Positions 3,579 to 63,194 of a stretch of DNA of 64,000 bases are shown piece by piece. Source of the DNA: Octopus vulgaris. Its lineage: Eukaryota. Both the position numbers and the translations under genes were made by a program. Positions within the stretch are counted from its first letter, which is position 1, and each line of letters begins with the position of its first letter. The DNA lies in assembly GCA_951406725.2 (NCBI GenBank), contig OX597832.1, forward strand, positions 52,452,001 to 52,516,000, read 5' to 3'. The notes under the pieces are model-generated. The model saw only the letters and a list, made by a program, of their open reading frames with translations. It ran no database searches and was not told where the DNA came from.

Positions 3579-3833
3579 CATCATCATCATCATCATCATC
3601 ATCGTCCAGACGGCGAGCTGGCAGAATCGTTAGTACGTCAGGCGATGTGCTTAGCGGTATTTCGTCTGCCACTACGTTCTGAGTTCAAATTCCGCCGTGG
3701 TCGACTTTGCCTTTCATTCTTTCGGGGTCGATAAAGTAAATACCAGTTGCGCACTGGGGTCGATCTATTCGACTGGCCCCTTCCCAACAAATTTCAGGCC
3801 TTGTGCCTATAATAGAAAGGATTGTTATTATCA

Positions 3834-3900
<67 letters not shown>

Positions 3901-6833: not shown

Positions 6834-7258
6834 GGATCTTTTCGGTTTGAACGGCAATTTTTAACATCATTTCTAGGTAACTAAAAAATTTTAAACTTCG
6901 TATACTGGTAGAATGTGTTTATAAAACATCTTTTTCTCTTGGCTTTATTGAGAAAATTCTATAGTTTGTAAGATATTTGTCGTTTTTTTCTTCAATTTCT
7001 GCAATTTCAACCAATCACCTCTTGAGGTGAAAACATTCTGTGCCGTATGAATATGTCCCTCGTTTAAGAAACAGATTGGGTTTATTTACATTTGTGAAGA
7101 AAAAAAGATACCCTTCTCCCCACCCCTAACCCTAACCCTAACTAACCCTAACCCTAAAACAGATTGAAATGCAATAGATCGATACTAGGGTCATAATTAT
7201 GAGTGACAATTTCATATGACAGCGCTAGAAAAAGCTGCCGTTCAAACCGAAAAGATAC
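6834..7258 (-). mobile_element. TTAGGG-containing MITE, copy 3, flanked by a 129-bp direct repeat
   Basis: Same TIRs; 6705-6833 is duplicated at 7259-7387. Confidence 0.9.
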
Positions 7259-7586
7259 AAATTTTCCATTTACAAAACATTTGTTGATACCTTGTAACAT
7301 CTGTACCAAGATTCATTCTATTAAAGCAACTCGGTTAAATTAGTTAAGGGCAGACATTACATGGAACGGATTTCTATTGGAAAGTACATCTTTTGATAAT
7401 GGTTGATAAATTTTTAGAGTTCCTTCTTTACTTCAGGTATGTCTGCTGCACCTGCTTATTATCAGAACCGCCTTGAAGATGTGGGGGAAAATTCCGTGCA
7501 GTACTTCCTTCGGCTCTTTAAGTTATGAGTTCAAATCCCGCCGAGACTAACTTTGCTTTTCATCCTTTTAGGGTCAATAAATAAAG

Positions 7587-8011
7587 GGATCTTTTCGGTT
7601 TGAACGGCAGTTTTTTTTAAATAATTTCCACGTAACTAAACACTTTTAAACTTCATATACTGGTAGAATGTGTTTATAAAACATCTTTTTCTCTTGGCTT
7701 TATTGAGAAAATTCTATGGTTTGTAAGATATTTGTTGTTGTTTTTTCTTCAATTTCTGCAATTTCAACCAATCAATGATGTCTATTGAGCTGAAAACATT
7801 CTGTACCGTATGAATATGTCCCTCGTTTAAGAAACAGATTGGATTTATTTACATTTGTGAAGAAAAAAGATACCCTTCCCCCCACCCTTAGCCCTAACCC
7901 TAACCCTAAAACAGATTGAAATGCAATAGATCGATACTAGGGTCATAATTATGGGTGACAATTTCATATGACACCGCTAGAAAAAAACTGCCCTTCAAAC
8001 CGAAAATATCC
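7587..8011 (-). mobile_element. TTAGGG-containing MITE, copy 4, inserted in an old SINE-A
   Basis: TSD AAATAAAG at 7579-7586 and 8012-8019. Confidence 0.92.
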
Positions 8012-8434
8012 AAATAAAGTACCAATCAAGATATTTAATCGACTAATCTATCCCGTAGGTTATTAGTACTACCTAATGTATTATAAAGAAGTGTATACAG
8101 ATCGAGGACCCACAGAAATCATACTGCTGGTTGCTCACAAAGAAAATACATTCTAGGTATGGTGCGATCGTTTACCACTGTTACCATCTCGTGCGTTTGT
8201 TAATTTAAAATCCTATTCGTACAAATCAATGCATGTTTTGTTTATCAATGTCTATACTGGAACAAATATTTTATATTTAGCTCGAAACACCGGAGGTATT
8301 CATCACTGAGGAGACTAAATAAGTTCTAAACATTGCGTCTGGCGATTCACGGGCGTTATGAGTGATGCCTTGGGTTTTTAACACGGAAACTTCTTTGACA
8401 TACTTCTCCGTGACATAATATTACAGCTAGTTTA

Positions 8435-8668
8435 AGACGGCGAGCTGGCAGAAACGTTAGCACGCCGGGCCAAATGCTTAGCGGTATTTCGTCTGCCGTT
8501 ACGCTCTGAGTTCAAATTCCGCCGAGGTCGACTTTGCCTTTCATCCTTTCGGGGTCGATAAATTAAGTACCAGTCGCGCACTGGAGTCGACGTAATCGAC
8601 TTAATCCCTTTGTCTGTCCTTGTTTGCCCCCTCTGTGTTTAGCTCCTTGCGGACAATAAAGAAATAAG
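8435..8668 (+). mobile_element. tRNA-derived SINE family A (representative copy)
   Basis: Head GGCGAGCTGGCAGAA, B-box GAGTTCAAATTCC, central GCCTTTCATCCTTTCGGGGTCGATAAA..AGTACCAG, A-rich tail; TSD AATATTACAG(C/T)TAGTT. About 20 further copies, e.g. 1585, 3608, 4590(-), 9880, 13835(-), 14090, 20334, 24002, 40769(-), 46934, 47891, 54785(-), 56270, 56820(-), 61260(-), 61485(-). Confidence 0.9.
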
Positions 8669-9185
8669 AATATTACAGTTAGTTCCGTTCCATATATGTA
8701 TACACACTATAAATACTACACACGTTGGTATTTTAATGTCAAGCCGTTTCAAGATCGTAAATCAATTTAATTAAAATTTAAAGTGGTAATTCGGTCTTGC
8801 ACGGGTCGGAGAGGTCGACCTTCTTAAGAACAAAGCAGTTCGTCACCAAACTTCTTTCAGGAGAATAGAATTAAAACATAGCAGTATCTTTGTCTTTTCC
8901 TTGTTTTAATCGTTGGCCGGCGGCCATGGTGAGGCACTGCTTTGAAGTGTTTTAGTCGAACAAATGGCCCCACCCCAATTTCGTTTTAAATCTGGTTCCT
9001 ATTTTATTGGACTCATTCGCTATTAACACTGATTATCATGCAGTGGTGGAGGGGGGGACAGACACAAGCACCAACATACACACACGCATACATACACACA
9101 CATATATACACTAAATATATATATATATATACACTTAAATATATATATATACACATACATTTATATACCTCTATATATATATAAT

Positions 9186-9263
<78 letters not shown>

Positions 9264-9326
9264 TATACATATACATCTGTGCAGATGTATACACACACAC
9301 ATATACACACATACACACACACACAC

Positions 9327-9359
<33 letters not shown>

Positions 9360-9385
9360 CATTATATATATATATATATATATAC

Positions 9386-9793: not shown

Positions 9794-10101
9794 GATGCAA
9801 ATCCCACTAAACCCTGTATTCATGTTTCCAGTGTGTTTAATTCATCATCAAAAAATGCTGTTGCATCTAAATCTTCTAAAGAGGTGTGCTAGCAGAAGAA
9901 CCGTTAGGATGTCGGGCAAAATGCTTAGCAGTATTTCTCCCAGCGTTTTACTTTCTGAGTTCAAATTCCACCGAAGTCAGTTTTGCTTTAATCCTTTCCG
10001 GGACGATAAAATAAGTACCAGTAAAATACTGGGGTCGATATAATCGATTATCCCTCTCATCCAAAATTTCAGGCATTGTAATCATAATAGAAAGAAATAT
10101 A

Positions 10102-10384
10102 GTTCTATATTTAAGGGATGAGGAATTCTGTACATTATTTACATTATTTACATCCGACGGATATTTGTCCTCATCTTGTTTGTTGTTGACACAACGTTTC
10201 GGCTGATGTACCCTCCAGCCTTCATCAGGTGTCTTGGGGAAATTTTGAACCTGGGTTCTCATTCCAGTAACTCCTCTTATATATTCTAGGAATGAATGCT
10301 GGAGGGTATATCAGCTGAAACGTTGTCTTAACAACAAACAAGGTGAGGACAAATATCCGTCAAACGTAAATAAAGTAAATAATG
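10102..10384. mobile_element. Fold-back hammerhead element, locus 1 (internally deleted)
   Basis: Inverted arms; intact hammerhead motif at 10188-10233(-); TSD TAGAAAGAAATATA at 10088-10101 and 10385-10398. Confidence 0.8.
10188..10233 (-). ncRNA. Minimal type-I hammerhead ribozyme motif
   Basis: GACAC-CUGAUGA-A-GGCUG-(10-nt loop)-CAGCC-GAAA-CGU-U-GUGUC: perfect 5-bp helices I and II and an intact core. Confidence 0.75.
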
Positions 10385-10602
10385 TAGAAAGAAATATATC
10401 CAAATATTTTCGTTTCAAGTATATACAAACAATTAGACCTAACTGGTGTCGCATTCTCAGCGGTTGTGTCGTACATGAAGGTCTTGGGGGCAATAATGCT
10501 GTTCCTTATTTCATGCTTCAATCAATTTTTACCATTTTTCTCCGTCACTTATTTTTCGGGTGATTCGATTGTTTTCCAGAAAGTTCCAATCAAAGATTGG
10601 TT

Positions 10603-19763: not shown

Positions 19764-21018
19764 CATACGTATATAGATACATATAGATATAGATGTGTAT
19801 ATATATATATACGACGGGCTCTTTTCAGTTTCTCTCTACCAAATCTACTCACAAGGCTTTGGTCGGCCCGAGGCTATAGAAGAAGACACTTGTCCAAGGT
19901 AGCACGCAGTGGGAATGAACCCGGAACCATGTGGTTGATAAGCAAGCTACTTACCACACAGCCACTCCTGCGTCTATATATAATATATAATATTTCATAT
20001 AATATATTATATATCATATATATAATATAAAAGATAGTAAATAAGATATAGAATAATTCTTGCTTCAATAATAGTACAAGGCGTTGCACCAGCATGGCCG
20101 TGACAAAAATTGCAAAGTGAGAATATAGACACATGTAAGGTTGTGTGGTAAGAAGTTTGCGATCACATGGTTTAGGGTTCAATCTCACTGCGAAGAAACA
20201 TGGACAACTGTCTTCTATAGCAGCGGGCTGACCAGAGGCTTGTGAGTGGATTTGGTAGACGGGAGATGAAAGAAACCCGTCGCGTACGTATCTATATATG
20301 TCTTTCTGTCTGTCTGTCTATATGTATGTATAAAGGCGGCGAGCTGGCAGAAACGTTAGCACGCCGGGCGAAATGCGTAGCCGTATTTCGTCTGCCGTTA
20401 CGTTCTGAGTTCAAATTCCGCCGAGGTCGACTTTGCCTTTCATCCTTTCGGGGTCGATAAATTAAGTACCAGTTACGCACTGGGGTCGATGTAATCGACT
20501 TAATCCGTTTGTCTATCCTTGTTTGTCCCCTCTGTGTTTAGCCCCTTGTGGGTAGTAAATAAATATGTCTATATGTATGTAAGTATCTATTTATGTATGT
20601 ATGTGTGTATATGTATGTTTGTGTGTATGTAACTATGTGTGAATGTATGTACGTCCTATATATGTGTGTATGTATGTATGTATGTATGTATGTATGTATG
20701 TTGCATGGTCGGGTCGTCGGCGACTAAACTGGCAACCCCATCAAGTTTGCTTGGTGAGGAAGGGTGATTGTTGGACACCCTGCTGTACGAAAAATAAGAC
20801 TTGTCAAAGGGCAGAAAGATCTCACGGGCAGTCAACGGCTATCCAACAATATGTGTACATGTGTATGTATGCGCAGGAACGTGGAAATACCTGGGTTGGT
20901 GTTCAGGCCCGCGATCGGCCCTGGGAAGTGAGAGGCCCCTCTGCTGTTGTCACAACATCTTCCGGGAGAGGGGAACTCTGAGAGAAAACCTGCAACACTG
21001 ACAACATTCGATGAGGTA

Positions 21019-22268
21019 TTAGGTTGTTCCGTAAATAATGGCCGCTCAAAGAGTTGTGTTTTGAAACGCAATTTTATCATAGTATTTTAATTATATTTGA
21101 AGTGATTTTCGACATACTTAATAATTGATGGATGCTCTTTAATAATTTTCTACTTATTTCAGACAGAAAACATTCTTGAAGAATAGGCGCCCTTAATTAT
21201 GAACATGGCAAAAAAGGACTTTAGCTTACTTTTCTTGCATGAGTTCAAGCTTGGGCACAATGCCTCCCAAACTGCTGCTGATATCAACAGAGCATGGGGA
21301 GAGGGGTCCACGAGTGATCACACAGTACAAAGGTGGCTTCAGAAATTCTGTAGTGGTGATGAGAGCCTTGAAGATGAAGAAGGTAGAGGACGGTCATACA
21401 GTCTTGACAGTGAACAATTGAAAGCAATTGTTTAACAAAACCCACGTCAAAGTGTCAGGGAAATGTCTCAAGCACTTGGTGTTGGTATTGCAACGGTCTC
21501 ACGCAATCTGCAGAACATTGGTAAGGTAAAAAAGCTTGATAAATGGATACTGCATTAGCTCAATGAAAATCAAAAAGTTCGGCGTTTTGAAGTGTGCTCG
21601 ATGCTCTTTCTGCGAAACACCAATGATCCTTTTGCTGCCCGAATAGTCACTCGTGACGAAAAGTGGATCCTTTATGATAACTGCAAACGATCAGGTCAAT
21701 GGCTTGATCGTGATGTGTCCCCAAAACATTTCCCAAAGCCAAAGTTGCTTCAGCAAAAGATTATGGTGACTGTCTGGTGGTCTGCAATTGCTGTTGTCCA
21801 TTACAGCTTTCTGAAAAGCAATCAGAGCAGCACAGCAGAGATTTACTGCAATCAACTCGCTGAAATGCATGCTCACTTGCAAAAAATGAGATCTGCATTC
21901 GTGAATCGGCGTGGCCCAATTCTGCTCCACAATAATACAAAGCCACATGTTGCAGGAATGACACTGCAGAAACTTAGACTTGGGATAAGAGACTTTACCA
22001 CATCCACCATATTCTCCTGATCTTTCACCCACTGACTACCATTTTTTAAAGCATTTAAACACGTTTTTAAGTGATAAAACTTTCAGGTCCAAACCAGAGG
22101 TGGAATCAGCTTTCAAAGATTTCTTAGCATCAAAGCCAATAAGTTTTTATCATCTCGTTGGTCGATGGCAGAGATGCATACTTTGACTAATCAAAATATT
22201 TCTGTTGTTAATTTTTCCCAAAAAAAATTATGTTTCTGAAATCGGCCATTATCTTCGAAACAACCAAA
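21019..22268 (+). mobile_element. Full-length defective mariner (DD34D) transposon
   Basis: TIRs TTAGGTTGTTCCGTAAATAATGGCCG and CGGCCATTATCTTCGAAACAACCAAA with TA TSDs; 1250 bp. Confidence 0.93.
21199..22190 (+). pseudogene. Mariner transposase pseudogene
   Basis: HTH N-terminus with GRGRS, WILH*L (WVPHEL-like), TRDEKW, MVTVWW, HNNTKPH and PPYSPDLSPTDY; premature stops and a frameshift. Confidence 0.9.
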
Positions 22269-22489
22269 TAGACTAGTTCTTCTTTCCGAGTTTATGTTGT
22301 CCATGTTCAGAGAGTGGGACTGGATTTGTGCAAATCCTTTCCCCTCACTGTAAAAAAAAAATCATCAGGCACAGGCATCGCTTGAAAAAACAGAAAGTAA
22401 GACCTATTACAAAAATGGTTGGTCGTAGCCTTCGCATGTGTGGGACTTTCCATCGGGCGATGGCAGTACTAGGACATGAGTTTGCAAGA

Positions 22490-22492
22490 ATG

Positions 22493-22524
<32 letters not shown>

Positions 22525-22658
22525 TGTATGTATGTATGTATGTATGCATGTATGCATGTATGTATGTATGTATGTATGTATGTATGTATGTATGTATGTA
22601 TGTATGTATGTATGTATGTATGTATGTATGTATGTATGTATGTATGTATGTATGTATA
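22490..22658. repeat. (TATG)n microsatellite
   Basis: Direct reading. Confidence 0.95.
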
Positions 22659-25028
22659 GTTAATCCAAACATGAACAAAGAGAAAACACAACAATGCGAG
22701 GACGTGGAACAAGTATAGTGTTATTGGACGCTCAGGATGTTATTGGATGTCCCTCAACATCGCTTGACAACCGATGGTGGTGTGTTTACGTCCTCGTAAC
22801 TTAGCGGTTCGGCAAAAGAGACCGATAGAATAAGTACTAGGCTTACAAAGAATAAGTCCTGGGGTCGATTTGCTCGACAAAAGGCGGTGCTCCAGCATGG
22901 CCACAGTCAAATGACTGAAACAAGTAAAAGAGTGTATATATAGAGGGAGAGGGGGAAGGAGGAGGGGAGACGCATACAAATGTGTGTGTATGTATGCATT
23001 TACGTATGTATATGCGTATGTAAATGTGTGCGCGCGTGCGTGTACGTTTGTGTTTCTCTCTCAATAGCGTTTGACAACCGGTGTTGGTCTCTTTATGTCC
23101 CCGCAATGTAACGATTTGGCAAAAGAGTCCTTAGAAAAAAATAACTGGGACGGATTTGTTCGACTAAAACCCTTCATAATTGTGCTCCAGCAAGGCCGTA
23201 GTCCAATGACTGAAACAAGTAGAAGATTAAAAATAAAAGATATTCTATGCATATACATTATACGATAACCACGCCTACAGGAATAAGTCAACGCCTCCCT
23301 CAATCATCAGCCAATCACAATACAGCCTTTCTTTCGCGTAAAATTTCCATTCACTTCACAACAAATATTGCTCAAAGACAAAATATTTCTAATAATAATA
23401 ACTGCGCTCCAGACACCAAGAAACGTTTCCATGAGAAAATAATTTGATACTGGTAGAAGTATCTCCATCTGAACTCAAGGTCAAAGACGTCATGCAGGGC
23501 TGGATAGAAACCCCAAAGAGGCCCTAAAAAGGCACTTAAAAGATTTTGGTGCCTTCATATATACTCTTTTATGTGTTTCAGTCATTTGACTGTGGCCATG
23601 CTGGAGCACCGCCTTTAGTCGAGCAAATCGACCCCAGGACTTATTCTTTGTAAGCCTAGTACTTATTCTATCGGTCTCTTTGCCCTAGTACTTGTTCTAT
23701 CGGTCGCTTTTGCCGAACCGCTAAGTTACGGCGACGTAAACACACCAACATCGGTTGTCAAGCGATGTTGTAGGAACAAACACAGACACACAAACATATA
23801 CACACACATATATATGCAAATATACGACGGGCTTCTTTCAGTTTCCGTCTACCAAATCCACTCAGAAGGTTTTGGTCGACCCGAGGCTCTTGTAGAAGAC
23901 ACTTGCCAAGGTGCCACGCAGTGGGACTGAACCCGGAACCATGTGGTTGGTAAACAAGCTACTTACCACACAGCCACTCCTACGCCTATATATGTGTAAA
24001 TCAGGCGAGCTGGCAGAATCGTTAGCACGCCGGGCGAAATGCGTAGTCATATTTCGTCTGCTCTTACGTTCTGAGTTCAAATTCTGCCGGGTCGACTTTG
24101 CCTTTCATCCTTTCGGGGTCGATAAATAAAGTACCACTTTCGCACTGGGGTCGATATAATCGACTTAATCCCTTTGTCTGTCCTTGTTTGTCCCCTCTAT
24201 GTTTAGCCCGTTGTGGGCAATAAAGAAATATATATATATGTGTAAATCAAAATATAAACAATGATAAATCATAAAATAAATTTTTATTTTGCTAAATGAA
24301 GCAAAACTAACAGTAAGATGGAAAACAATGTTTATTTTAAGGGACGTTAGCCATCTGAATGTGGCTAGGGACGTCCCTTATGTTATGGAGCAGTTACTGT
24401 CTATATCTCGTTTAGAGAATTATTATTAATGTTTATTTTTATATACTTATATTTGAAATTTTTTCTCCTACTTTTTTTTTTTTTAATTGCAAAGTCTTTG
24501 ATCAGATCCTCACCGTGACACCATGAACACTTCGAAACTATATTTCCGATCGTGTAAACCACTTCGAGTGTTATTTTGGCAAGTTTTGGCAAATGATTTC
24601 TTTCGTGCCGTAGACCATTTACCATTTCTCTGGTGTTCTCCGCCTTCCCTTGTTGCCCTAAGAACGTGCTTATTTTGCTTAATGGTTGATCCAGCGCTGA
24701 AGTCATGAGGTGTCCATTGGCTTGTCTGAACCTATGAAAACAAATTATGGTTTACGGCACAAAAGAAATCACTTTAAACTTATTTTGACATAGACACGTC
24801 CTCATCATGTTCAAGTAAAAATACCCAGAACACATTTCTTCAAAATTCTTTATAGTCGCAGACATAGCTGTGTGGTTAAGAAGCTCTTAATTCTTTGGGG
24901 TTTGGATAAATCACCCTTGGAAACATGGGTGTTTCGTTCAACATCCTTAAACAACCATGACGGGTATACTGGGCTTCGTATATTGGTATCCCAGTGTCAC
25001 TTTGATGGCATGCATTGCTCTCTCACTC

Positions 25029-29949: not shown

Positions 29950-30341
29950 AACAAATTTAATTTGCATTTACACGAAAGTTACCACAAGAGGTTTGAAGTG
30001 AGTAATTTTTCAAGCAGTTTGTCATGCAGAACTGTTTTACGTATCAGTCCCCCAAATATCGTATCTCATCATATCTTCATTATTCGCTCTTCGGTTGCGA
30101 CATTCAAAGTTCGGTGTACTCTGGCGGAAGCGCTCGACTTGCTCCACTGAATACGCTCCCGTGATCATCAGAATGAGTACCAACAAAATGGACTTTTAGA
30201 GACATCTCACAACCAGTTTTGCTGCAGTTTTTCAACAGTCTCAATTGAGACTCCACATATTTTTCTGCCTTGTGATTGCCAAGGAAGCCACGAATCCCTG
30301 CGGCAAATCTGTCCCAATCTTTCTTTTTCTGTTGAGCATAA
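29950..30341 (-). mobile_element. Degenerate DNA-transposase C-terminus (tentatively Chapaev3/CMC-like)
   Basis: GFLGNHKAEKYV...GCEMSLKVHF..H.D...EQVERFRQ...MMRYDIW resembles the MSLKxHFLHSH...GERFHQ motif. Confidence 0.4.
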
Positions 30342-30357
30342 TGGGCAATTCTGTACA

Positions 30358-30503
30358 ATATTTACATTATTTACATTCGACGAATATTTGTCCTCATCTT
30401 GTTTGTTGTTAACACAACGTTTCGGCTGATATACTCTCCAGCCTTCTTCAGGTGTCTTGGGGAAATTTCGAACCTGAGTTCTCATTCCTAAGGTATTTTT
30501 CGA

Positions 30504-30535
<32 letters not shown>

Positions 30536-30886
30536 GTGTTCAGGTCACTGCTTGGAATCGAACTCGGAATCTTAAGGTTAGTAGCCCGCGCTCGGAACCT
30601 TGGGGTTTAGTAGGCCCACGGGCATATGGCGTTGTGGTTAAGAGTGCGGGCCACAAACCTCAAGATTCCGAGTTCGATTCCAAGCAGTGACCTGAACACT
30701 AATAAAATACCTTAGGAATGAGAACCAAGGTTCGAAATTTCCCCCATGACACCTGATGAAGGCTGGGAGGTATATCAACCAAAACGTTGTGTTAACAACA
30801 AACAAGATGATGACAAATGTCCGTTGAATGTAAATAATGTAAATAATGTACATAATTCCTCATCTCTTAAATATAGAACTGTATCG
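30358..30886. mobile_element. Fold-back hammerhead element with tRNA-like heads, locus 2
   Basis: Divergent arms; A-box TGGCGTTGTGG at 30627-30637 and B-box GAGTTCGATTCC at 30670-30681; hammerheads at 30411-30456(-, intact) and 30748-30793(+, G12A); TSD TGGG(C/A)AATTCTGTACA. Confidence 0.82.
30411..30456 (-). ncRNA. Minimal type-I hammerhead ribozyme motif
   Basis: GACAC-CUGAAGA-A-GGCUG-loop-CAGCC-GAAA-CGU-U-GUGUU. Confidence 0.72.
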
Positions 30887-31259
30887 TGGGAAATTCTGTA
30901 CATTCTAGGACAGTCGTGGGCAAACTACGTCTCACTGGATTTTCGGAATGGTATGTCTAACGAAAAATGATGTTACATTTTTCAGTAGTGCAGCCCGTCT
31001 GATGATTAGCTGTCTCATTCGGCCTGTTTCTCGAAAAACGGTTGGCTATTCCTACTCTCGGATCTTTTTTGGCCTGACAAAGATAACTAGTTCGACTTCT
31101 GCCTCAGACAGCTTAGGAAAGATCTCTTGAATGTACTTAAAGGCTACAAAATCATTATCAAGAGTCGTGACAAAGTAATTTTATGTTGAATCACGGGAAC
31201 AACACCTTCCAGGTGTCCAGCAATGGCTTGAACCTGACATTGTTACTCGTCACAGAAAA

Positions 31260-34100: not shown

Positions 34101-34116
34101 TAAGAGACTGCAGGTG

Positions 34117-34885
34117 AGCGAGCTGGCAGAAACGTTAACACGTCGGGCGAAAAGCTTTGCGGTATTTCGTCTGCCGTTACGTTGTGAGTTCAAATTCCGC
34201 CGAGGTCGACTTTGCCTTTCATCCTTTCGGGGTCGATAAATTAAGTACCAGTTAAGCACTGGGGTCGATATAATCGACTTAATACCTATGTCTGTCCATG
34301 TTTGTCTCCTCTATGTTTAGCCCCTTGTGGGTAATAAAGAAATAGGTATTTCGTCTGCCGCTACGTTCTGAGTTCAAATACCACCGAGGTCGACTTTGCC
34401 TTTCGTCCTTGTGGGGTCGATTAAATAAGTACCAGTTACGCACTGGAGTCGATATAATCGACTTAATCCGTTTGTCTGTCCTTGTTCGTCCTCTCTGGGT
34501 TTAGTCCCTTGTGGGTAATAAAGAAATATGTATTTCGTCTGCCGCTACGTTCTGAGTTCAAATTCCGCCGAGGTCGACTTTTCCTTTCGTCCTTGTGGGG
34601 TCGATTAAATGAGTACCAGTTACGCACTGGGGTCGATATAACCGACTTAATCCGTTTGTCTGTCCTCTCTGTGTTTAGCCCCTTGCGGGTAGTAAAGAAA
34701 TAGCTATTTCGTCTGTCTTTACGTTCTGAGTTCAAATTCCGCCGAGGTCGACTTTGCCTTTCATCCTTTCGGGTTCGATTAAATAAGTACCAGTTACGCA
34801 CTGGGGTCGATGTAATCGACTTAATTCCTTTGTCTGTCCTTGTTTGTCCCCTCTATGTTTAGCCCATTGTGGGCAATAAAGAAAC
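34117..34885 (+). mobile_element. SINE-A multimer (one head plus four bodies)
   Basis: Units of ~172-185 bp; single TSD AAGAGACTGCAGGTG at 34102-34116 and 34886-34900. Confidence 0.87.
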
Positions 34886-35157
34886 AAGAGACTGCAGGTG
34901 GAACCCTTGTACTGACTAAAGCTAATCCATTCAGGAGAAGCGTACAGGGTAACGGGCGAAACACTTGTGATCATGAGATTCCTACTGAAGATATAGAAGG
35001 GTTTCCAATATTGCGAATACTTTAATCAGCTCCAGGAGAAGAACTTGCAATATTTTTAAGAAACTCTAACAGTTTCTGTATAAAGTATAGCATCTCTGAG
35101 TTTTATTTTACTAATATACATATATTTCTCTTCTCTTCACTCTCTCTCTCCCTCCCT

Positions 35158-37860: not shown

Positions 37861-39074
37861 TATTTACACTGCGTTCCTTTTTGTTTGTTTGTGCGCATGT
37901 GTGTGGTTCAGTGTGTGTGTGCCTATGCATGTATGCATGTACATATGTATGTGTGTATGTATGTATGCATGTGTGTATGTATATATGTGTGTATGCATAT
38001 GTATATATGTGTGTATGTGTGTGCATCTGTAAGTATGATTTTTTTTTCAAATAAAAATATAATGACAGCTAGTGGGATCCATTTGAATAAAACAGAAATC
38101 AAAGGGGTTCATAGGTCAAAAATGGTCAAGAAACACTGTTCTACACTATTTCTCATTGAGCATCTCTTTTTTCAACATCTCTGACCCTGAGTAGCTTCCA
38201 CACAACCGATCAGCTGACATTATTTCCTCTCCTACTGAATTTCCAGCCCATTCTGAAGACATTCTTCACAATTTTATCTCATTCCAAACTGAAATATCAT
38301 AATGAGATCATTCTACACATAGGCGCAGGAGTGGCTGTGTGGTAAGTAGCTTGCTAACCAACCACATGATTCCGGGTTCAGTCCCACTCCGTGGCATCTT
38401 GGGCAAGTGTCTTCTGCTATAGCCCCGGGTCGACCAATGCCTTATGAGTGGATTTGGTAGACGGAAACTGAAAGAAGCCTGTCGTATATATGTGTATATA
38501 TATATATGTGTGTGTGTCTGTGTTTGTCCCCCTAGCATTGCTTGACAACCGATGCTGGTGTGTTTACGTCCCCGTCACTTAGCGGTTCGGCAAAAGAGAC
38601 CGATAGAATAAGTACTGGGCTTACAAAGAATAAGTCCCAGGGTCGATTTGCTCGACTAAAGGCGGTGCTCCAGCATGGCCACAGTCAAATGACTGAAACA
38701 AGTAAAAGAGTAAAGAGATCCGTTGACCAAATTTCCCTTGCACAGCTTTGACTGGAATTAAGTTGTTGGTAAAAGAAAGACACTTGTTCAGAAATATGCA
38801 CATATGCTTTCAGGTAGTTCAAACAATTTGAATTCTGATAATTCAGACACATTTCTGATTTGTCCAGCTGTATCTCATGTGAAAGAGAAATTGTAGACAC
38901 CACTTGCTATCTCTTCAAGTGTTTTGCTTGTGTCTGAAAACAGTGTGATAAATGCTAAATAAAACTAGCTGCTACATAAAAGAAATATTTACTCTTCTGC
39001 AAAACAATGTAAGTGACTGGATATCATAACATTTTATTCAAGAGATTTCAACTAACTTTCCTGAATTCTATAAT

Positions 39075-39555
39075 CCTCTACTCCTTACTCCAGCAGACCC
39101 TTTGTTCCCTAATTCAGATGACCATCTACTCCTTATTCCAGCAGACCCTTTACTCCTTAATCCAGCTGTGCCTCTGCTCCTTACTCCAACAGACCCTTTG
39201 CTCTTTAATCCAGCTGACCCTTTGCTCCTTACTCCAACAGACCCTTTACTCCTTTATCCAGCAAACTCTTTGCTCCTTACTCCAACAGACCTTTTGCTCC
39301 TTAATCCAGCTGCCCCTCTGCTCCTTAGTCCAGCTGTGCCTCTGCTCCTTACTCCAGCTGCCCCTCTGCTCCTTACTCCAACAGACCCTTTGCTCTTTAA
39401 CCCAGCTGACCCTTTGCTCCTTACTCCAACAGACTCTTTGCTCCTTAATCCAGATCTTCTGTTCCTCACTCCAATAGACCCTCTGCTTCTTAATCCAGCT
39501 TCCCCCCCCCCTACTCCTTTATACAGTTGACCCTGTATTCTTTAATCCAGCAGAC
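39075..39555. repeat. 24-bp minisatellite (CTCCTTA[C/A]TCCAGC[A/T]GACCCTTTG)
   Basis: About 19 units; gives 8-aa periodic ORFs (LLLTPTDP, SLLQQTLC). Confidence 0.88.
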
Positions 39556-39984
39556 CTACCTTTTAATACTTTTGCTTTCAGATCACTCTGTCAAATGTAA
39601 TGCATATCTATTCACGTTCTTTTCAATGGCTTCAAGATCTCAATGATAGGGTTGTTTATATTTAGAATGACATTGTAGAGTAGGTGTGAGAGGCCACATC
39701 TGGTCAGTTTGAACATAAAACAGTCAGAATATTTTGGTCAAATATGGGTGGTTCAAATACTAAAAGGCTAATCCAGTTGACTCTCCAAGATACACCATAT
39801 TTACTGGTAAAATAGTTGAATCCAAAGAACAGTACAACAAATTTTATGTCAAATAAAATTTCTTTCACTGTTGAAAGTATTTCTTCCTTCTTCGTGATTC
39901 ATTTCACCCAGAAAACTATTTGCAAAACATTCCTCTTCTTGATTCCTCCTTTCTAGTCTTGTTTTATCAACCAACCAGTTATAA

Positions 39985-41540
39985 CATCTTGTTTGATGCT
40001 TCTCCGCTTGGCAACTTGTTAGATCCTTGATCACTTGGCAACGTATTTGCTGCTTGTCCACTAGGCAACCTGTTTGATCCTTAATCACTTGGCAACTTAT
40101 TTGCTGCTTGTCCACTAGGCAACTTGTTTGATCCTTGTCCATTTCTTTGATGCTGGTGCACTTGGCAACCTGTTAGATCCTTGATCACTTGGCAACTTAT
40201 TTGCTGCTTGTCCACTAGGCAACTTGTTTGATCCTTGTCCATTTGTTTGATGCTGGTGCACTTGGCAACCTGTTTGATCCTTGATCACTTGGCAACTTAT
40301 TTGCTGCTTGTCCACTAGGCAACTTGTTTGATCCTTGTCCATTTGTTTGATGCTGGTGCACTTGGCAACCTGTTTGATCCTTAATCACTTAGCAACTTAT
40401 TTGTTGCTTGTCCATTAGGCAACTTGTTTGATCCTTGTCCATTTGTTTGATGCTGATGCACTTAGCAACCTGTTAGATCCTTGATCACTTGGCAACTTAT
40501 TTGCTGCTTGTCCACTAGGCAACCTGTTTGATCCTTGTCCATTTGTTTGATCCTTAATCACTTGGCAACTTATTTGTTGCTTGTCCACTAGGCAACTTGT
40601 TTGATCCTTGTCCATTTGTTTGATGCTGGTGCACTTGGCAACCTGTTTGATCCTTAATCACTTGGCAACTTATTTGTTGCTTGTCCACTAGGCAACTTGT
40701 TTGATGCTTCTCCACTTGGCAACTTCCTTCATATTTGTCCACTTGGCAACCTGTTTGATCGTTGTCTATTTATTTCTTTATTTCCCACAGGGGGCTAAAC
40801 ATAGAGGGGACAAACAAGGACAGACAAAGGGATTAAGTCAATTATATCGACCCTAGTGCATGACTGGTACTTAATTTATCAACCCCAAAAGGATGAAAGG
40901 CAAAGTCAACCTCGGCAGAATCTGAACTCAGAATGTAACGACAGATGAAATACCACTAAGCATTTCGCCCGGCGTGCTAACGTTTCTGCCATCTCGCCAC
41001 CTTCTTTTTACATGAAATAAAGCATCTTGCTCAAGGACACAACACATCGCCAGGAATTGAACTCACAACCTTATGATCGTGAGCCGAATGCCCAAACCAC
41101 TAAGCCACATTGTCTACTTGGCAACCTGTTTGATGTTTGTCCACTTGACAACATATTTGCTGTTTGTTCACTAGGCAACCTATTTGATCCTTGATCACTA
41201 GGCAATTTGTTTGATGCTTCTCCACTTAGCAACTTGTTTGATGCTTCTCCGCTTGGCAACTTGCTTCATATTTGTCCACATGGCAACATGCTTGATTGTT
41301 GTCCACTTGGCAACCTGCTTGATCCTTGATCACTTGGCAACTTGTTTGATGCTTGTCCACTAGGCAACTTGTTTGATGCTTTCCCGCTTGGCAACTTGTT
41401 TGATGCTTCTCCGCTTGGCAACTTATTTGCTGCTTGTCCCTTAGCAACTTGTTTGATGCTGGTCCACTTGGGAACACGCTTGATCATTGTCCACTTGGCA
41501 ATTTATTTGACCCTTGTCCATTAGGCAGCTTGTCTGATCC
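39985..41540. repeat. 27-bp minisatellite with 100-bp higher-order repeat, split by a SINE insertion
   Basis: Monomer CACTTGGCAACTTGTTTGATGCTTGTC; a 27+27+27+19 arrangement gives a 100-bp period (e.g. 40201 vs 40301). Confidence 0.88.

Positions 41541-42510: not shown

Positions 42511-63194
<20,684 letters not shown>

What the first reader, a model, noticed from the sequence alone, without database searches (positions are those of the whole stretch)
30342..30902. Fold-back retroelement combining tRNA-like Pol III heads with hammerhead ribozyme motifs
Seen: a ~530-bp unit of two divergent arms. Read from the centre outward, the complete plus arm has a tRNA-like head (A-box TGGCGTTGTGG, B-box GAGTTCGATTCC), an AAT-rich spacer and a minimal type-I hammerhead (GACAC-CUGANGA-A-GGCUG-loop-CAGCC-GAAA-CGU-U-GUGUY), followed by a conserved tail. 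The minus arm mirrors it but lacks the A-box. The whole palindrome lies between one 16-bp direct repeat (1 mismatch), and the architecture recurs at 10088-10398 and 51176-51759. Established: minimal type-I hammerheads with palindromic helix III mark Penelope-like element pLTRs and act as dimers, and Schistosoma Sm-alpha repeats couple a Pol III promoter to a hammerhead. Inference: a non-coding, Pol III-driven, ribozyme-bearing SINE/retrozyme-like family mobilised by a Penelope-like RT. I do not know of a description in cephalopods.
Basis: partly seen in the sequence, partly recalled or inferred. Interest (0 to 1): 0.85.

Follow-up and report, generated by a model that had tools for sequence, protein, structure and literature searches.

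The report
Penelope retrotransposon with tRNA-derived head
The palindrome is two short end-pieces of an ordinary Penelope-type jumping gene, but this family is unusual in starting with a tRNA-derived sequence that likely acts as its RNA polymerase III promoter and likely explains why most copies are short and SINE-like.

Summary
The palindrome and its 16-bp target duplication are real, but the unit is not a separate non-coding family. Each arm is the pseudo-LTR (pLTR) of a protein-coding Penelope/Poseidon-type element found in this genome (2,652-nt unit, 835-codon RT + GIY-YIG ORF). The ORF's ATG lies in the arm, so the hammerhead and the 'tail' are the ORF's first ~52 codons. Inverted tail-less arm + tailed arm + duplication is the published Penelope insertion form.

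I found no published report of the tRNA-derived A/B-box head at the very start of the pLTR. In 59 loci chosen by 3' sequence, 30 of the 35 reaching the head stop at its first bases (1.8 expected). Genome-wide exact 20-mer counts fall from 5,148 to 848 across that point. So most templates likely began there, probably as Pol III transcripts. The whole unit has no TTTT on the sense strand, which suggests, but does not show, full-length Pol III transcription. RNA-seq was uninformative. Verdict: new variant of a known kind.

The parts
30342..30357 (+). left target-site duplication (16 bp)
   Evidence: (32 of 48 inverted pairs vs 3.2% control); flanking decayed frame continuous through it
30358..30619 (-). 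inverted, tail-less pLTR arm (unit positions ~17-242 plus a short duplicated head fragment at 30600-30619); no A-box
30411..30456 (-). minimal type-I hammerhead with intact core (A at variable position 7), 5-bp stem I, 6-bp stem II, palindromic loop-less stem III
   Evidence: z -2.1; descriptor in PMC4209133; cleavage not tested
30554..30565 (-). B-box of the inverted arm
30618..30692 (+). tRNA-derived head (tRNA position 1 at 30620; A-box 30627-30637, B-box 30670-30681); inferred RNA 5' end at about 30618-30620
   Evidence: 5'-end pile-up; no cloverleaf
30718..30884 (+). first ~52 codons of the Penelope ORF (ATG 30718-30720); frame broken in this copy by a one-base insertion
   Evidence: insertion seen
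30748..30793 (+). hammerhead of the plus arm, mutated (G12A at 30781, stem II mismatch at 30778); predicted inactive
30848..30884 (+). ~30-nt 'tail' between the two 3' end clusters (inferred reverse-transcription start sites), present on one arm only
   Evidence: loose read ends at the same two places; PMC11167929
30887..30902 (+). right target-site duplication (16 bp, 1 mismatch)
10088..10398 (.). second insertion of the family: two head-less pLTR fragments between a 14-bp direct repeat
51176..51759 (.). third insertion: two arms that begin in the ORF end / 3' UTR, with a 15-bp duplication

Best explanation
[quoted passage not shown] Shown: the unit is head - AAT spacer - ATG - ORF (RT + C-terminal GIY-YIG, 835 codons) - stop - ~30 nt, then the next head. 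The hammerhead and tail lie inside the first ~52 codons. Most copies end 5' at the head's first bases and 3' at one of two sites ~30 nt apart, and come as inverted pairs between 10-16-bp duplications. Inferred: RNA starts at the head. The element's enzyme nicks the target and primes reverse transcription at the two internal sites (as shown in vitro for Poseidon of Anolis). When the primed site is the 5' pLTR or a solo pLTR, the enzyme runs off the RNA's 5' end after ~240-270 nt, and the two products are joined head to head, giving SINE-like palindromes as the family's main product. The hammerhead would act only as a dimer of two same-strand pLTRs, and is not needed for these short insertions.
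For: Arm joined to the ORF end and to the ORF start: upstream sequence translates to RT and GIY-YIG motifs; 14 of 22 RT-bearing loci run through the stop into the head (four of the 22 are near-duplicates); 9 of 16 N-terminal copies have sense pLTR directly before the ORF, and one of them starts at the head. The hammerhead-encoded peptide is kept in a 57%-identical relative (TPDDG..PKRCV). The one common polymorphism in the ribozyme is at variable position 7 (T 91, A 58 of 151), which is an Asp/Glu change. 5' ends: 30 of 35 stop within -8..+5, 1.8 expected. Exact 20-mers: 7,482 at the ATG, 5,148 in the head, 848 just upstream of the head, 109 just past the tail; controls 0. Head best matches tRNA-Arg among 35 distinct tRNA sequences (z 8.6). 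Divergent arms at 24 of 30 and 21 of 29 loci; 3' ends cluster at 232-245 and 264-276. The same haplotypes occur in ORF-linked and head-start arms. No T>=4 run in the 2,652-nt sense unit.
Against: No direct evidence of Pol III use: RNA-seq shows equal depth in both mate orientations, 86-87% of reads running on into unlike sequence, and no pile-up of starts. A native 5-bp inverted repeat straddles the head's 5' edge and could favour fold-back there on longer templates. Only 1 of 16 N-terminal copies starts at the head. The T-run shortage is modest: codon-shuffle P 0.028, second-order Markov P 0.23, and other RT ORFs of this genome are also somewhat short of T runs (3 vs 5.3, 3 vs 5.5, 1 vs 2.0). 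The tRNA comparison covered only seven isotypes. No intact full-length copy was seen.
Confidence: 0.7

Rival explanations
1. The short arms are an independent non-autonomous SINE/retrozyme family (tRNA head + Penelope 3' end) with its own source copies, moved in trans by the Penelope enzyme.
For: Most copies start at the head and lack the ORF. Solo arms keep A/B boxes and both priming sites, so they could be secondary sources. Published parallels: Schistosoma Pol III + hammerhead SINEs (PMC6765202) and retrozymes as non-autonomous PLE derivatives (10.64898/2026.07.22.740005).
Against: The arm is the ORF-linked pLTR, including the head. The same three haplotypes occur in both classes (small, query-biased sample). 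There is no surplus of heads over downstream sequence (5,148 vs 7,482). The arm's 3' half is coding in the source element.
Confidence: 0.15
2. The head is a relic SINE insertion. The element is transcribed by Pol II from an internal promoter like other Penelope elements, and the 5' pile-up comes from a Pol II start, RNA processing, or reverse-transcriptase fold-back at the small inverted repeat at the head's edge.
For: D. virilis Penelope has a TATA-less LINE-like internal promoter in its pLTR (PMC2377424, abstract; PMC8557442). A native inverted repeat spans the boundary. An uncapped Pol III RNA is a poor mRNA for an 835-codon ORF (general knowledge).
Against: Many junctions end cleanly at +1..+3 with no part of the inverted repeat. 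The end falls 7-9 nt before the A-box, where Pol III starts on tRNA-type promoters (general knowledge). The head has no acceptor stem or cloverleaf for tRNA-type processing. The unit lacks T runs, while seven related PLE ORFs have 45 against 43.2 expected.
Confidence: 0.15

Closest known systems
Penelope/Poseidon clade EN+ PLEs, e.g. Poseidon of Anolis carolinensis (PMC11167929; PMC8557442; PMC4209133)
   Same: Single RT + C-terminal GIY-YIG ORF with DKG and CCHH motifs and no CX2-5CxxC linker; pLTR at both ends; minimal hammerhead overlapping the ORF start; two 3' ends ~30 nt apart (tail); inverted 5'-truncated partner copy.
   Different: The pLTR here opens with a tRNA-derived A/B-box head, and 30 of 35 copies reaching it stop there. 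No such head is mentioned in the passages read; D. virilis Penelope is described with a LINE-like TATA-less promoter.
TRIMp3 elements Helenus, Ajax, Cassandra (PMC10886601)
   Same: Small-RNA-derived Pol III promoter inside a terminal repeat; proposed origin by SINE insertion into the repeat.
   Different: Those are non-autonomous LTR elements with PBS/PPT, and the paper argues the autonomous partner must use Pol II and is unlikely to share the repeat. Here the coding element itself carries the head.
Schistosoma Sm-alpha / Sj-alpha SINE-like repeats (as reviewed in PMC6765202)
   Same: Pol III-type promoter followed by a hammerhead.
   Different: Those are non-coding tandem repeats released by cleavage. 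Here copies are dispersed inverted pairs that keep sequence on both sides of the cleavage site and derive from a coding element.
Non-LTR retrozymes (10.64898/2026.07.22.740005)
   Same: Type-I hammerhead in short PLE-pLTR-related sequences.
   Different: Defined by head-to-tail tandem units; the preprint has no occurrence of tRNA or Pol III. This family is mostly head-to-head.
Octopus tRNA-SINEs OK, OR1, OR2 (Ohshima and Okada 1994; OR2 and the reference seen in PMC4758252; paper not read; names OK/OR1 and a tRNA-Arg origin are recalled)
   Same: Possibly a tRNA-Arg-type head.
   Different: Sequences could not be compared; identity with one of them is not excluded.

Membership tests
Penelope/Poseidon EN+ PLE | single ORF with PLE-type RT followed by C-terminal GIY-YIG endonuclease | tested here: met
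   569-aa open frame in L211 and 835-codon majority frame; RVT_1 hits; EN read from motifs, not from a Pfam GIY-YIG hit; relatives carry PF00078 and some PF01541
Penelope/Poseidon EN+ PLE | CCHH motif in the EN, DKG motif, no CX2-5CxxC linker (PMC8557442) | tested here: met
   ADKG at 295, YSIPCSC 728, DEHR 751, ADH 768; linker pattern absent. No tree with named references was built.
Penelope/Poseidon EN+ PLE | pLTRs in direct or inverted orientation with optional 30-40-bp tail | tested here: met
Penelope/Poseidon EN+ PLE | minimal type-I hammerhead in the pLTR | tested here: met
   core intact in 92 of 147 arms; minus arm of the locus folds as expected; no Rfam hit; cleavage untested
tRNA-derived SINE | tRNA-derived head with A and B boxes at the 5' end | tested here: met
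tRNA-derived SINE | head absent from the autonomous partner; only the 3' end shared | tested here: not met
   the coding element carries the whole arm at both ends
tRNA-derived SINE | transcription by RNA polymerase III | tested here: inconclusive
   indirect only; RNA-seq shows no start sites
non-LTR retrozyme | head-to-tail tandem units each with a hammerhead | tested here: not met
   divergent pairs at 24 of 30 and 21 of 29 loci; direct tandems rare (e.g. L027)
non-LTR retrozyme | self-cleavage and circular RNA | not testable with these tools
   needs in vitro assay and divergent RT-PCR
TRIMp3 (Helenus) | non-coding LTR element whose two LTRs flank a short non-coding internal part | tested here: not met
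   the pLTRs flank an RT-EN ORF

The most novel reading that the evidence does not exclude
The whole protein-coding retrotransposon was transcribed by RNA polymerase III from its tRNA-derived head. It purged Pol III terminators from 2.65 kb of sense strand, and the same promoter made its own SINE-like progeny: an autonomous element that is LINE and SINE in one.
Probability: 0.3. Interest if true: 0.85.

Novelty: new variant of a known kind. Interest (0 to 1): 0.58.

Why it matters
How Penelope-like elements are transcribed, and why they leave inverted, tailed short copies, is still open. This family gives a sharp natural marker for the RNA 5' end and for both priming sites, so the insertion model can be tested on thousands of copies. 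If the head is a working Pol III promoter, it is a case of a coding retrotransposon capturing a tRNA-type promoter, which the TRIMp3 paper thought unlikely, and a route by which SINE-like families arise inside their partner. Practically, some of the 'SINE' or unclassified repeats in such genomes may be Penelope pLTRs.

Tried and rejected
Rfam and ARAGORN: no hammerhead or tRNA hit at the locus. Covariation or extra conservation among genomic copies: none; copies decay evenly. 5' ends at the hammerhead cleavage site: a slight excess of alignment starts at unit 175-200, not separable from breaks at decayed CpGs; inconclusive. Independent SINE with the same head: no surplus of heads. RNase P-type processing of the head: no cloverleaf. 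Sequencing-run search: no RNA holder listed. Three raw RNA runs under the same species label as some holders, plus one contig set, were laid on a 5' copy: mostly reads of embedded copies, no start or end pile-ups. No solved-structure match. No earlier scan finding by sequence or by words. Literature searches found no report of a tRNA-headed PLE pLTR; Repbase, Dfam and most subscription journals are outside that library, and supplements of the bioRxiv preprint were not seen.

Full report
Observation. The two divergent arms, the boxes and the 16-bp direct repeat are at the stated places. Two details differ from the finding. The plus-arm hammerhead (30748-30793) has G12A and a broken stem II pair and folds no better than shuffles, while the minus-arm one (30411-30456) is intact. 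The other two sites are not copies of the same architecture: 10088-10398 has no head, and 51176-51759 starts upstream of it. Rfam and ARAGORN see neither motif.

The arm is a high-copy repeat. All 30 loci taken from a search with the plus arm hold an arm covering most of it. A 37-nt hammerhead stretch has 2,099 exact matches. Forty arbitrary 10-kb stretches held 4 loci. From 7,482 exact 20-mers at about 94-95% identity per base I infer roughly 20,000-25,000 arms.

The arm is the pLTR of a coding Penelope-like element. Three of the first 30 loci shared sequence upstream of the head. Walking on from it gave GIY-YIG and RT motifs, a 569-aa open RT+EN frame that ends about 30 nt before the head, and Pfam RVT_1. 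Of 22 RT-bearing loci, 14 run through the stop into the head; the other 8 break off or are rearranged (four of the 22 are near-duplicates). At the other end, 9 of 16 copies holding the ORF's N-terminus have sense pLTR directly in front, and one begins at the head. The majority unit is 2,652 nt with an 835-codon frame at minimum depth 9. Its ATG is at unit position 116, so the hammerhead and 'tail' are codons 1 to about 52. A relative at 57% identity keeps the hammerhead-encoded residues in the same frame. The only common polymorphism in the ribozyme is the variable position 7, an Asp/Glu third base. DKG and CCHH motifs are present and the CX2-5CxxC linker is absent, which by PMC8557442 (passages) places it with Penelope/Poseidon.

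The fold-back is the family's normal insertion form. Divergent arms occur at 24 of 30 pattern-selected and 21 of 29 3'-selected loci. Direct repeats of about 10-16 bp flank 32 of 48 inverted pairs, 2 of 25 solo arms and 3.2% of 600 mismatched controls. 3' ends fall in two clusters about 30 nt apart, and the inverted partner usually lacks the tail. PMC8557442 describes this form for PLEs generally. PMC4209133 (part 1 of 4 read) notes opposite-strand hammerhead pairs 100-700 bp apart. PMC11167929 (passages) shows in vitro that the tail lies between two internal reverse-transcription starts, that the hammerhead overlaps the ORF start, and that cleavage is not needed for insertion.

What is unusual is the 5' end. 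The head aligns best to tRNA-Arg among 35 distinct tRNA sequences from 30 loci (z 8.6; only seven isotypes sampled); it keeps A and B boxes but no cloverleaf. In 59 loci chosen only by 3' sequence, 35 reach the head's start, 30 stop within -8..+5 and 5 go further; 1.8 stops are expected at the truncation rate seen downstream. Genome-wide exact 20-mers show the same step: 7,482 (ATG), 5,148 (head), 848 (just upstream), 109 (just past the tail), controls 0. Many junctions are perfect hairpins centred on this point, and RNA reads carry the same joints. I infer that most templates had their 5' end at the head, where Pol III would start.

Is the full unit a Pol III transcript? The sense strand has no run of four T in 2,652 nt, against 30 runs of four or more A. 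Codon shuffling expects 2.9 (P 0.028), and windows with 4 T of 5 number 4 against 9.8 (P 0.005). These nulls used the version, which also had none. Seven distant PLE ORFs show no shortage (45 vs 43.2). Against this: a second-order Markov null gives P 0.23, three other RT ORFs of this genome are also below expectation (3 vs 5.3, 3 vs 5.5, 1 vs 2.0), and only 1 of 16 N-terminal copies starts at the head. This is suggestive only. Three raw RNA runs (about 6% of each; 6,935-9,362 reads laid) cover the arm deeply in both orientations, 86-87% of reads run on into unlike sequence, ORF depth is about a hundredfold lower, and no start or end pile-up appears. That is what embedded copies in host transcripts give, and it does not test Pol III. 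Copies are about 5-6% diverged per base and decay evenly over core and boxes, so the family looks old.

Separate SINE or by-product? The same three haplotypes occur among 32 ORF-linked and 60 head-start arms (scored in full for 14 and 27 of them; the head-start set is biased by the queries), and heads are not in surplus. So the short arms are most simply products of the coding element's own pLTR. Secondary amplification from solo pLTRs is possible and not excluded.

Comparison and novelty. Membership in EN+ PLEs is met on sequence features. SINE and retrozyme membership each fail one defining feature, although the short copies behave like a SINE. The nearest design parallels are TRIMp3 elements (PMC10886601, passages) and Schistosoma Pol III-hammerhead repeats (PMC6765202, passages). 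D. virilis Penelope has a LINE-like internal promoter (PMC2377424, abstract). The retrozyme preprint 10.64898/2026.07.22.740005 (part 1 of 5 and passages) has no tRNA or Pol III mention. The Octopus vulgaris repeat paper PMC13282606 (passages and a supplement search) lists 190 Penelope-like families and no hammerhead. PMC6962438 (passages) counts 235 Hammerhead_1 hits in giant squid, so hammerheads in cephalopods are on record. PMC4758252 (passages) names octopus OR2; its sequence could not be compared. Eight searches found no tRNA-headed PLE; Repbase and Dfam could not be searched. Verdict: new variant of a known kind, interest 0.58.

Noticed in passing
window 29950-30357 and 30887-31200, minus strand: The element sits in a decayed reading frame that continues across the target duplication; the peptide looks transposase-like from recall, not tested.
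   Followed up: partly
window 3607-3846, 8434-8673, 20333-20572, 34112-34893, 46929-48128, 53457-53696 and others: A different, much denser ~240-nt SINE-like family (11 or more copies in the window, some in tandem), plus further 230-300-nt families (D10, D15-D17, D20).
   Followed up: no
window 39028-39501 and 39926-41443: Tandem arrays of 24-nt and 27-nt (100-nt higher-order) units; the 24-nt array has a 166-codon open frame.
   Followed up: no
L112:4912-7104 and L128:2861-5116: Two of 40 arbitrary 10-kb stretches hold 731- and 752-codon open RT frames that begin with near-identical peptides, next to AAT repeats in L128: probably a young, high-copy LINE family.
   Followed up: partly
L097:4436-7159: 908-codon open frame with no Pfam match.
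   Followed up: no
L034, L035, L053, L191-L194 (contig C17): Near-identical Penelope-bearing segments with shared flanks, i.e. segmental duplications.
   Followed up: no
P0114: A clear PLE-type RT protein is labelled as coming from a bacterial metagenome-assembled genome, probably contamination.
   Followed up: no
family-wide: Thousands of perfect inverted pairs inside host transcripts would form long double-stranded RNA hairpins; both orientations are seen in RNA reads. Editing was not assessed.
   Followed up: no
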